This document shows, in pieces, positions 3,047-3,100 of a stretch of 64,000 bases of DNA (position 1 is its first letter; each line of letters starts with the position of its first letter). The stretch covers positions 64,717-128,716 of the forward strand of contig JABIDS010000013.1 in assembly GCA_018651605.1 (NCBI GenBank), read 5' to 3'. Source of the stretch: an archaeon (GTDB taxonomy: Archaea > Nanobdellota > Nanobdellia > Pacearchaeales > GW2011-AR1). The notes beneath the pieces are model-generated. The model ran no database searches and had not been told where the DNA came from. It was given only the letters and a program-made list of their open reading frames with translations. Position numbers and translations under genes: made by a program.

Positions 3047-3100
3047 GAAATCATTACCCATTAACCCACCCGTCCCACCCTTAATGGGGGTAATGATTTC
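3047..3100. repeat. perfect 13-bp hairpin with a C-rich four-tract loop
   Basis: GAAATCATTACCC (3047-3059) pairs with GGGTAATGATTTC (3088-3100). An inner ATTAA/TTAAT pairing also forms. The loop is CCCACCCGTCCCACCC (3065-3080). Confidence 0.8.

What the first reader, a model, noticed from the sequence alone, without database searches (positions are those of the whole stretch)
3047..3100. Hairpin family with variable stems but a conserved four-tract C-rich loop (G-quadruplex motif on the opposite strand)
The same architecture occurs at four places: an AT-rich stem whose sequence differs at every locus, closing a loop made of four CCC tracts separated by 1-2 nt.
- 3065-3080: CCCACCCGTCCCACCC, stem GAAATCATTACCC/GGGTAATGATTTC.
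- 12178-12192: CCCGCCCACCCTCCC, stem AAACATCATT/AATGATGTTT.
- 31270-31285: CCCGCCCAGCCCACCC, stems AAAATTTATT/AATAAATTTT and GCTTTGTTGAAAA/TTTTCAACAAAGC.
- 51124-51138: CCCACCCACCCACCC, stem CCCAATAC/GTATTGGG.

At the three intergenic copies the 3' junction is also conserved (CCCWCCCT-KAA(A)TG). All four copies have the C-rich strand on the + strand, which is otherwise strikingly C-poor here. The complement (for example GGGTGGGACGGGTGGG) is a textbook G3N1-2 quadruplex motif, and the C strand is an i-motif candidate. A conserved loop with freely varying but always complementary stems points to selection on structure, not on a single ancestral sequence. I do not know of a described archaeal element of this kind.
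Basis: seen in the sequence. Interest (0 to 1): 0.78.

Follow-up and report, generated by a model that had tools for sequence, protein, structure and literature searches.

The report
C-tract-loop palindromic insertion elements
A tiny AT-rich archaeon (Pacearchaeota-like DPANN) carries a family of short DNA hairpins, each tipped by four CCC tracts, that look like small selfish insertions: related genomes lack them, two sit in frame inside essential genes, and one is nested in another copy.

Summary
There are four (C3N1-2)3C3 runs on a strand with 10% C, against about 1e-5 expected, and each is the apical loop of a hairpin.

The stems do not vary freely. I found two more copies: a split copy at site 2, and S5, about 150 nt left of the window inside a Rad50-like gene. 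The six copies form two sequence families:
- Type A: S1 and S4.
- Type B: S2 inner, S2 outer, S3 and S5. Seven of 11 stem pairs are invariant and four show compensatory changes. The junctions and C-rich tails are also conserved.

At all three testable orthologous loci the element is missing from relatives, and about 140 kb of relatives holds no copy. Two copies are in frame inside genes (pheT, Rad50-like). One 122-nt unit sits exactly in the loop of another copy. All six copies, plus two C-tract runs in another Pacearchaeota contig, put the C-rich strand on the C-poor strand, whatever the local gene direction.

Best reading: a lineage-specific, non-autonomous palindromic repeat family (MITE/REP/RPE-like) with strand-polar insertion or retention. 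The G-quadruplex/i-motif-capable loop is the conserved core. No transposase was found, and no function or folding was tested.

The parts
3047..3100 (+). S1, a type A hairpin. Arms 3047-3064 / 3081-3100 with a GG bulge; loop 3065-3080 CCCACCCGTCCCACCC. It lies 18 nt upstream of the rnhB start (3029, minus strand) and downstream of tRNA-Met (3261-3338, minus strand).
   Evidence: Sequence. Inverted repeat I1. Perfect 8-bp loop-proximal stem cccattaa/ttaatggg. DNA fold -11.5 kcal/mol, z -3.9. Identical in the independent contig L133.
12084..12124 (+). S2 outer copy, left half (5' tail, left arm, and loop tracts 1-2 ending in ...CCCGCCC). A 122-nt insert separates it from its right half.
   Evidence: Direct repeat D1, 95% identical to 12144-12184. 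Pairs with 12247-12279 in the 216-nt fold (-18.5 kcal/mol, z -5.6).
12125..12246 (+). S2 inserted composite unit (122 nt). Outer inverted repeat 12130-12143 / 12230-12243. It encloses the complete type B copy 12144-12218, with stem 12156-12166 / 12199-12209 and loop 12178-12192 CCCGCCCACCCTCCC. The unit sits exactly between C-tracts 2 and 3 of the outer copy's loop.
   Evidence: Inverted repeats I2 and I5. Folds. Covariance-model score 90.3 bits.
12247..12279 (+). S2 outer copy, right half (loop tracts 3-4 CCCTCCC, right arm, 3' tail).
   Evidence: Direct repeat D2, 97% identical to 12186-12218. Weak covariance-model half-hit at 12240-12291.
31214..31334 (+). S3 composite unit (121 nt). Outer inverted repeat 31214-31226 / 31322-31334. 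It encloses a type B copy with C-rich tails, stem 31245-31255 / 31293-31303, and loop 31270-31285 CCCGCCCAGCCCACCC. It lies between the stop codon of a pilin-like gene (31205) and the conserved promoter TTTTTATAGTTTG (31349) of the next gene.
   Evidence: Inverted repeats I1 and I2. Fold -17.1 kcal/mol, z -4.6. The whole unit is absent at the syntenic locus of L166/L167. Covariance-model score 86.6 bits.
51104..51160 (+). S4, a type A hairpin (57 nt = 19 codons) in frame inside pheT (49716-51488). Arms 51104-51123 / 51139-51160 with a GG bulge; loop 51123-51138. It encodes ..SQLQRPIPHPPTRIGGVEIA.. in a length-variable surface loop.
   Evidence: Inverted repeat I1. Fold -15.3 kcal/mol, z -5.0. 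Protein and DNA alignments show that the closest homologue (L001, 81% aa identity) lacks the whole palindrome.

Best explanation
These are copies of a lineage-specific family of small, non-coding palindromic repeat elements that were inserted into the chromosome. They are of the MITE / REP / Rickettsia-palindromic-element kind.

**Two subtypes**
- Type A (about 55 nt): CCC-AWTAM-[C-tract loop]-KTAWT-GGGGG, extended by further stem.
- Type B (about 95 nt): C-rich tail, 11-15-bp AT-rich stem, ATTTTATT.., loop CCCGCCC..CCCWCCC, TKAA(A)TGAAT, stem, C-rich tail. It is often enclosed by a further 13-14-bp inverted repeat, giving a 121-122-nt unit.

**Shown**
- The copies are homologous to one another.
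- They are absent from relatives at orthologous sites.
- They can sit in frame in genes.
- One unit lies in the loop of another copy.
- Pairing is kept by compensatory changes.
- All copies have the same strand polarity.

**Inferred**
- The element spreads, or is retained, through a single-stranded hairpin form on the strand that is the lagging-strand template. That is the G+T-rich, C-poor strand.
- Hence the C-rich hairpin is always on that strand, and the very stable G-quadruplex motif is always on the other.
- The loop and the stem are what a trans-acting enzyme, encoded elsewhere in the genome, recognises. This would keep them intact while the rest of the sequence drifts.
- Any effect on neighbouring genes (3' ends of pilin-like genes, the rnhB leader, peptide inserts in PheT and Rad50) would be secondary.
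For: **Family, not chance**
- Four motifs against about 1e-5 expected.
- Six copies in about 69 kb of this genome, counting the split copy and S5.

**Common descent**
- Type B alignment: 7 of 11 stem pairs invariant, 4 compensatory, 0 broken, plus shared junctions and tails.
- S5 combines an S2-like stem, differing by one A:T to G:C pair swap, with an S3-like 5' junction.
- Type A copies share CCCACCCKTAWTGGGGG and the GG bulge.

**Insertion**
- pheT of L001 lacks all 57 nt.
- The ACS-POR spacer is 41-107 nt in L134 and L136 but about 750 nt here.
- In L166 the stop codon abuts the conserved promoter, where this genome has the 121-nt unit.
- There is no 3- or 4-tract C run, no C-rich-loop hairpin and no covariance-model hit in about 140 kb of relatives, although all but L169 share the C-poor strand.

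**Behaviour typical of mobile repeats**
- Two in-frame intragenic copies on opposite coding strands: pheT and Rad50-like.
- A nested insertion exactly at the loop centre, with 95-97% identity between host and guest copy.
- A decayed relic at the same pheT spot in L003.

**Polarity**
- Six of six copies have the C-rich strand on the + strand, although S1 and S5 are next to or inside minus-strand genes.
- Cumulative GC skew rises monotonically across the window.
- Both C-tract runs in the Pacearchaeota contig L058 obey the same rule.

**Literature**
- MITEs in 3' UTRs and in-frame palindromic elements in genes are described in PMC10969869.
Against: - No transposase, integrase or HUH nuclease turned up among the window ORFs scanned against Pfam or in the precomputed Pfam labels of gene calls near its right end.
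- No target-site duplication can be shown.
- Only one pair of copies is nearly identical. The others are strongly diverged in the stems, which is unlike a recently burst MITE family.
- Perfect C-tracts and perfect pairing persist in a genome whose + strand is strongly depleted of C. This argues for selection, which could equally be for a host function.
- Only about 69 kb of this genome could be read, so copy number and genome-wide polarity are extrapolations.
- Pattern scans of viral contigs and JGI metagenome contigs found no relatives. The metagenome scan used a type B-only pattern and did not return this genome's own contig, so it says little.
- One of the two L058 runs has no flanking hairpin.
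Confidence: 0.55

Rival explanations
1. The elements are host-selected cis-acting RNA structures. A hairpin presenting C-rich single strands could act as a transcript 3' end or stabiliser for the pilin-like genes. It could also act as an anti-Shine-Dalgarno-like sponge or small RNA: the loops contain CCUCC / CACC. Read on the other strand, it would be a G-rich structured leader for rnhB.
For: - S2 and S3 lie 22 and 9 nt after the stop codons of pilin-like genes and contain T5 / T4 runs.
- S1 lies in the probable rnhB leader.
- The hairpins fold well as RNA.
- Pairing is maintained by compensatory changes.
- All three differences between the two near-identical S2 copies fall in the tails, not in the stem or loop.
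Against: - Contexts are inconsistent: the 3' end of + genes, the 5' end of a minus-strand gene, and inside two coding regions read on opposite strands.
- Polarity follows the chromosome strand, not the transcription direction.
- The elements are absent from orthologous loci of relatives that keep the same genes and even the same promoter.
- There is no Rfam match, even at E <= 5.
- The TATA-like boxes inside the left arms would start transcripts within the loop, which would exclude the hairpin from the RNA.
Confidence: 0.15
2. The elements are functional DNA-level G-quadruplex / i-motif sites. They could be programmed fork-pausing, recombination or segregation signals. One example would be a G4-initiated recombination system for pilin variation, like the Neisseria pilE G4. 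Their orientation would then be set by function.
For: - The loops are G3N1-2 motifs of the most stable class. S4's complement is (GGGT)3GGGG.
- Polarity with respect to strand composition is strict, 6 of 6 plus 2 of 2.
- Two copies directly follow pilin-like genes.
- Type A carries an adjacent C5/G5 tract that could switch between hairpin and quadruplex. This resembles the recurrent archaeal quadruplex sequences with a flanking C-rich track in PMC8044849.
Against: - Copies inside pheT and the Rad50-like gene, and a copy nested in a copy, are hard to see as placed signals.
- Relatives with the same gene order and the same extreme skew have none.
- There are no silent pilin cassettes or repeats of pilin sequence near the sites.
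- S5 has lost one tract yet keeps a perfect stem.
- The + strand already has about 28 G-rich windows with G4Hunter >= 1.5 in coding DNA.
Confidence: 0.12
3. The hairpins are made in situ, not moved. A C-tract seed plus fold-back or template-switch synthesis copies adjacent host sequence in inverted orientation. Each locus would then get its own stem around the same loop.
For: - In pheT the right arm (..IGGVEIA) has counterparts in relatives: IGG in P0002 and GKVEIE in P0003. The left arm and loop do not.
- The left outer arm of S3 partly repeats the preceding host sequence TTGTTGAA.
Against: - Type B copies share stems (7 of 11 pairs), junctions and tails at unrelated loci. The arms are therefore inherited, not copied from local flanks.
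- blastn-short found no donor for any arm elsewhere in the window.
- L003 also carries a C-rich remnant to the left of the shared arm. The whole pheT element therefore looks ancestral there and decayed, rather than half-built here.
Confidence: 0.08
4. The pattern is a chance cluster of C-runs or an assembly or amplification artefact.
For: None beyond the small number of copies.
Against: - None of 300 shuffles produced a motif, and the expectation is about 1e-5.
- S1 is identical in an independent assembly.
- Reading frames stay intact through S4 and S5.
Confidence: 0.01

Closest known systems
Prokaryotic MITEs, including archaeal SM1-SM4 of Sulfolobus and 3'-UTR-preferring QMITE2 of Coxiella (review PMC10969869)
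   Same: - Short, non-coding and multicopy.
- Terminal or whole-length inverted repeats.
- Mostly just outside genes.
- Nested and truncated copies occur.
- Lineage-specific presence.
   Different: - No target-site duplication.
- No parent insertion sequence seen.
- What is conserved is the apical loop and the pairing, not the terminal repeats. The outer inverted repeats of S2 and S3 differ.
- Copies are much more diverged than in typical MITE bursts.
REP / REPIN elements mobilised by RAYT (IS200/IS605-like Y1 HUH transposases); from my own knowledge of Nunvar 2010, Bertels and Rainey 2011, and Ton-Hoang 2010/2012
   Same: - Short imperfect palindromes that act as single-stranded DNA hairpins.
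- Stems co-vary between families.
- Strand or orientation bias linked to the lagging-strand template.
- Nested or hairpin-within-hairpin arrangements.
   Different: - REPs carry a conserved 5' GTAG at the foot, not a conserved loop.
- REPs are extragenic.
- The RAYT gene is usually flanked by REPs. No such gene is in the window.
- As far as I know they have been described only in bacteria.
Rickettsia palindromic elements (RPE; Ogata 2000, summarised in PMC10969869)
   Same: Palindromic repeats in a small, reduced genome. They insert in frame into essential genes at tolerant surface positions, adding a peptide segment.
   Different: - RPEs are about 100-150 bp and encode a conserved peptide.
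- They have no C-tract loop and no strand polarity rule.
- There is no sequence similarity.
Recurrent potential G-quadruplex sequences with an adjacent C-rich track in Methanomicrobiaceae (PMC8044849)
   Same: An archaeal, interspersed, intergenic repeat that combines a quadruplex motif with a competing hairpin. It has been proposed to switch between the two structures.
   Different: - There the G-runs themselves pair with the flanking C-track, giving a GC hairpin or triplex.
- Here the tract run is the unpaired loop of an AT-rich stem. Only type A has an adjacent G5/C5 tract.
- The phylum, sequence and context differ, and intragenic copies occur here.
Integron attC sites (from my own knowledge)
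   Same: Recombination sites defined by folded single-strand structure rather than sequence. Only one strand is active, and orientation is tied to replication.
   Different: - attC conserves the R/L boxes at the base and extrahelical bases, not the loop.
- attC sites flank gene cassettes next to an integrase.
- None of this is seen here.
Neisseria pilE G4 (Cahoon and Seifert 2009; from my own knowledge)
   Same: A G3N1-2 quadruplex motif next to a pilin gene, acting in an orientation-dependent way.
   Different: - It is a single locus upstream of pilE, with an associated small-RNA promoter and silent pilS donors.
- Here there are multiple copies, also in unrelated genes, with no donor cassettes.

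Membership tests
MITE | Short (< about 500 bp), non-coding, several copies in one genome | tested here: met
   Elements are 54-122 nt. There are six copies in about 69 kb.
MITE | Terminal inverted repeats shared by family members | tested here: inconclusive
   Each element is a palindrome. The 13-14-bp outer repeats of S2 (GTTCAAGCATTATC) and S3 (GCTTTGTTGAAAA) differ; the inner stems are shared.
MITE | Target-site duplication flanking the insert | tested here: not met
   Comparing filled with empty sites at pheT and at S3 shows no duplication. The CTCCACCCC direct repeat around S5 recurs in all type B copies, so it is part of the element.
MITE | A related autonomous insertion sequence or transposase in the genome | not testable with these tools
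   None turned up among the window ORFs scanned against Pfam or in precomputed Pfam labels near its right end. The rest of the genome could not be fetched.
REP / REPIN (RAYT-mobilised) | Conserved GTAG-type tetranucleotide at the 5' foot of the palindrome | tested here: not met
   Alignments A2 and A3 show no conserved foot motif. The conservation is in the loop and junctions.
REP / REPIN (RAYT-mobilised) | Strictly extragenic location | tested here: not met
   S4 lies in pheT and S5 in the Rad50-like gene.
REP / REPIN (RAYT-mobilised) | Cognate RAYT / Y1 transposase gene | not testable with these tools
   It is not in the window. The genome-wide search was not possible.
Rickettsia palindromic elements | In-frame insertion into protein-coding genes | tested here: met
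   The reading frames of pheT and of the Rad50-like gene run through S4 and S5.
Rickettsia palindromic elements | Sequence or peptide homology to RPE families | tested here: not met
   phmmer with the 34-aa pheT insert peptide against 1.8 billion representative proteins gave no meaningful hit.
Canonical G-quadruplex motif (G3+N1-7)3G3+ | Four runs of at least 3 G with short loops on one strand | tested here: met
   The minus-strand complements of S1-S4 have loops of 1-2 nt. S5 has lost one run.
Canonical G-quadruplex motif (G3+N1-7)3G3+ | Actual folding into a quadruplex, or an i-motif on the C strand | not testable with these tools
   This needs CD, UV melting or chemical probing. The nearest-neighbour folding used here does not model G4 or i-motif.
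Integron attC | R''-L'' / L'-R' boxes, extrahelical bases, adjacent cassettes and an IntI integrase | tested here: not met
   The alignments show no conserved base-of-stem boxes. There is no integrase and no cassette array.
Any Rfam RNA family | Covariance-model match | tested here: not met
   Only three tRNAs reach the gathering score. Nothing at the elements reaches E <= 5.

The most novel reading that the evidence does not exclude
The elements are a previously undescribed kind of strand-polar, single-strand-mobilised hairpin element of DPANN archaea. The recognition determinant would be a folded C-tract / G-tract loop, an i-motif or G-quadruplex held on an AT-rich stem, rather than terminal repeats. 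An unknown archaeal enzyme would read it. Insertion would go preferentially into exposed loops of other hairpins and into tolerant gene loops. On this reading, the same system also shapes protein length variation in these reduced genomes.
Probability: 0.15. Interest if true: 0.8.

Novelty: new variant of a known kind. Interest (0 to 1): 0.5.

Why it matters
- Small palindromic repeat elements are barely described in DPANN archaea. Their reduced genomes are usually thought to carry little selfish DNA.
- This family has unusual traits for such repeats. The conserved part is a loop of the most stable G-quadruplex class, the i-motif-capable strand always faces one way on a chromosome with extreme strand asymmetry, and copies sit in frame inside pheT and a Rad50-like gene.
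- If the polarity reflects replication, the elements give a ready-made marker of replichore direction in uncultivated archaea. They would also be a natural test of how quadruplex-prone DNA is tolerated on the leading-strand versus the lagging-strand template.
- If an enzyme recognises the loop, it would be a new structure-specific DNA tool.
- If none of this holds, the finding is still a clean example of a lineage-specific palindromic repeat family, and a warning that 'variable stem, conserved loop' need not mean a regulatory RNA.

Tried and rejected
1. **Genome-contig scan.** Only L058 (Pacearchaeota ARS1160) was relevant.
2. **Metagenome-contig scan.** A type B-specific pattern gave 7 unrelated hits. 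The window's own contig was not returned.
3. **Two viral_contig scans.** These returned only unrelated GC-rich hits, plus a different hairpin family of the form CCCCCACCCTGCCCTCCCCCAAATG...CATTTGGGGGAGGG.
4. **More of the same genome.** The JGI contigs have no DNA on hand. ENA contigs added only 4.3 kb on the left, where S5 was found, and 1 kb on the right.
5. **Donor sequences for the arms.** blastn-short against the window found none.
6. **Mini-ORF or leader-peptide idea.** I considered reading ATG GTT GCA CCC GCC CAG CCC ACC CTT AAA TGA at S3 and TTG CCC GCC CAC CCT CCC TGA at S2 as short ORFs. I rejected it because the frames differ among copies, the TATA-like boxes would place the transcript start inside the loop, and intragenic copies are read on both strands.
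7. **Origin recognition boxes.** Rejected. There is no orc1/cdc6 gene, there are intragenic copies, and the skew is monotonic.
8. **Outer stems as pre-existing host terminators.** At S3 the outer repeat is also missing in the relative, so the idea is not supported there.
9. **Covariance model of type B.** Searched over 211 kb, it returned the training copies, the right half of the S2 outer copy (15.6 bits, E 1.6), and S1 at 20.6 bits (E 0.09). It found nothing in relatives.
10. **Peptide search.** The search with the pheT insert found nothing.

Full report
**Setting**

The window is chromosomal DNA of a DPANN archaeon of the Pacearchaeota / Nanoarchaeota kind. PheT, 2-oxoacid:ferredoxin oxidoreductase (POR) and diphthine synthase all have their best hits in such MAGs. 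It carries housekeeping genes and a type IV pilus-like operon. No transposase or integrase turned up among the ORFs scanned against Pfam or in precomputed Pfam labels near its right end.

The + strand is 27.7% A, 10.2% C, 23.1% G and 39.0% T. GC skew is about +0.45, and cumulative skew rises monotonically across all 64 kb. Close relatives share this C-poor strand.

**Check of the observation**

- They are the only (C3N1-3)3C3 runs in the window. None of 300 dinucleotide-preserving shuffles gave one, and a Poisson estimate is about 1e-5.
- Each folds, as DNA or RNA and on either strand, into a hairpin with the tract run as a 15-18-nt apical loop (z -2.2 to -5.0).
- Site 1 is identical in an independent assembly of the same strain (L133).
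- The elements are C-rich islands: 26-37% C against a 10% background.

1. Site 2 is nested.
   - A left half (12084-12124, ending CCCGCCC) and a right half (12247-12279, starting CCCTCCC) belong to one copy.
   - Between them lies a 122-nt unit with a 14-bp outer inverted repeat. That unit encloses a complete copy 95-97% identical to the split one.
   - The insert sits exactly between tracts 2 and 3 of the host loop.
2. Site 3 has the same composite form: 121 nt with a 13-bp outer repeat.
3. Site 4 is a 57-nt palindrome in frame in pheT.
4. A scan for C-rich islands found a sixth copy, S5, about 150 nt left of the window start in L133. It reads TTTCAAACGTCATTTTATTATTTGTTGCA-CCCGCCCGCGAACCACCC-TTAAATGAATGACGTTTGAAA, with a 15-bp stem.
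   - One C-tract is lost, which is why the regular expression missed it.
   - It lies in frame in the coiled coil of a 1006-aa Rad50-like protein (zinc hook CPLC) encoded on the minus strand.

**The copies are homologous, in two subfamilies**

- Type B comprises S2 inner, S2 outer, S3 and S5.
  - They share the stem core (7 of 11 pairs invariant), the junctions ATTTTATT.. and TKAA(A)TGAAT, the loop start CCCGCCC, and C-rich tails on both sides.
  - All 44 pair cells are Watson-Crick. Four pairs changed on both sides and none on one side only.
  - S5 has the S2 stem with a single A:T to G:C swap, and the S3 5' junction.
- Type A comprises S1 and S4. They share CCC-AWTAM-[loop]-KTAWT-GGGGG with the same GG bulge. 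About half of the outer pairs are identical and the rest are doubly changed (counted by hand).

So the stems are not independent inventions. They have drifted under a constraint that keeps them paired.

**Relatives lack the elements**

- pheT.
  - The closest homologue (L001, 81% aa identity) lacks both arms and the loop.
  - L003 (73%) has, at the same spot, a weak hairpin with atypically C-rich codons (CGC CTG TCC GCC) and a right arm 75% like S4. This is best read as a decayed relic.
- Site 2. In L134 and L136 (POR 80-81% identity) acetyl-CoA synthetase (ACS) and POR are 107 and 41 nt apart. Here about 750 nt intervene, holding a pilin-like ORF and the nested hairpins.
- Site 3. In the fully syntenic L166/L167, the stop codon of the orthologous gene is followed at once by the promoter ATTTTTATAGTTTG. 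That promoter is conserved in the window at 31349, so the whole 121-nt unit is extra here.
- Across about 140 kb of relatives there is no 3- or 4-tract C run, no C-rich-loop hairpin, and no hit with a covariance model of type B.
- A more distant Pacearchaeota contig (L058) has two four-tract runs. One lies inside a 16-bp hairpin and one has no hairpin. Both are on its C-poor strand.

**Polarity**

All six copies put the C-rich strand on the + strand, yet S1 and S5 are next to or inside minus-strand genes. The rule therefore follows the chromosome strand, not transcription. With the two L058 runs that makes 8 of 8. It also runs against composition, since G-runs are seven times commoner than C-runs on that strand (719 vs 106).

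By the usual reading of G+T excess (my inference), the + strand is the lagging-strand template. The C-loop hairpin can then extrude on single-stranded DNA, while the quadruplex motif stays on the leading-strand template.

**Interpretation**

Four lines of evidence point to a repeat or insertion element family of the MITE / REP / RPE kind, rather than a structure selected at each locus:
- homology among copies;
- lineage-specific presence;
- in-frame copies in two genes read on opposite strands;
- a nested copy and a decayed relic.

The intact tracts and stems, in a genome that otherwise loses C on this strand, indicate constraint within the family. Most simply, the hairpin and loop are what a trans-acting enzyme needs.

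Strand polarity is what single-strand-based elements such as IS200/IS605-type and REP/RAYT elements show. It could equally come from purging of copies that place a very stable quadruplex on the lagging-strand template.

Nothing here shows the enzyme, the mechanism or any folding beyond Watson-Crick hairpins. Those steps are inference.

**Rivals**

- A regulatory RNA. For it: position after pilin-like genes, T-runs and good RNA folds. Against it: the inconsistent contexts, the polarity and the absence from relatives.
- A placed DNA signal based on G4 or i-motif. The polarity and the Neisseria pilE analogy favour it. The intragenic and nested copies, and S5's lost tract, count against it.
- In-situ fold-back origin. 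It is contradicted by shared arms at unrelated loci and by the lack of donor sequences.
- Chance or artefact is excluded.

**Comparison with known systems**

- No Rfam family matches.
- The nearest archaeal precedent is the recurrent quadruplex-plus-C-track repeat of Methanomicrobiaceae (PMC8044849). There the G-runs pair with the C-track, instead of forming the loop of an AT stem.
- MITE criteria are met only in part: there is no target duplication and no shared termini.
- REP criteria fail on the foot motif and on extragenic location.
- RPEs match in behaviour (in-frame insertion) but not in sequence.

I therefore file it as a new variant of a known kind.

**Limits**

- Only about 69 kb of this genome was readable.
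- The closest available relatives are already about 20% diverged in conserved proteins, so insertion dates are coarse.

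Noticed in passing
L133:5376-5480 (minus strand = window orientation), about 100-200 nt left of window position 1: Sixth element copy (S5, type B, with a partly decayed loop CCCGCCCGCGAACCACCC). It lies in frame in the coiled coil of a 1006-aa Rad50-like gene (zinc hook CPLC), whose 5' part lies at window 1-1194 on the minus strand.
   Followed up: yes
window 3154-3283: The 3' end of tRNA-Met is partly duplicated downstream of the intact gene. TTTTAATAGCGGGGGCGG occurs at 3154-3171 and 3256-3273, and GATTTGAACC at 3236-3245 and 3274-3283. The extra copy is split by a 64-nt double hairpin (3172-3235; stem ACTTCAACTC/GAGTTGAAGT). It looks like an att-site remnant with another small palindromic insert.
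   Followed up: partly
window 3284 and 3309: The only two differences between the window and the independent contig L133 over 5275 nt are G/A changes, and both are inside the tRNA-Met gene.
   Followed up: no
whole window; also L001, L003, L134, L136, L166, L058: Extreme strand asymmetry is shared by this Pacearchaeota-like lineage: about 10% C against 16-25% G on one strand (23% in the window), and GC skew about +0.45 in the window. Skew falls to about 0-0.1 only where genes are on the minus strand. I found no paper on this.
   Followed up: partly
window 32773-32882 (inside diphthine synthase 32168-32956): A 33-nt G-rich tandem repeat (3.3 copies, 89% matches) adds about 25 aa (KGLKGLEGKKV repeats) that homologues of 231-240 aa lack.
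   Followed up: partly
window 11628-12062: A pilin-like ORF with a class III signal-peptide-like N-terminus (..KKAQSGIIVTILIVLLVLG..) lies between ACS and POR. It is absent at that position in relatives L134 and L136, and appears to have been gained together with the site 2 hairpins.
   Followed up: partly
window 51380-51470 (pheT C-terminal part): There is a second lineage-specific G-rich insertion in PheT (..GSKGEEGV..GEKR..). P0003 has an even longer insert there, and most homologues have none.
   Followed up: no
L169:11320-11500 (pheT of a more distant, unskewed relative): The same variable PheT loop holds other small palindromes (CAGAAATCTTCGATTTCTG and AAATCGAAAGATTT). This loop seems to be a recurrent landing place for palindromic inserts.
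   Followed up: partly
L058:5033-5047 and 6833-6847 (Pacearchaeota ARS1160, NZCX01000031.1): Two four-tract G runs lie on the G-poor strand of a 7.8-kb contig. One is inside a 16-bp hairpin together with a mini-hairpin; the other has no flanking inverted repeat.
   Followed up: partly
L145, L146, L148-L151, L155, L159, L160 (viral contigs); L016, L033, L084, L088, L115 (genome contigs, mostly Bacteroidota): An unrelated recurrent hairpin family, CCCCACCC(NN)CCCTCCCC-(N)AAATG..CATTT-GGGGAGGG, turned up repeatedly in the pattern scans.
   Followed up: no
window 3128-3152: A palindromic promoter-like box, GGAGGTTTATAAATTTATATAG, lies between S1 and the tRNA fragment. It matches this genome's TTTATAAA promoter consensus on both strands and may drive rnhB with a leader that contains S1.
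   Followed up: no
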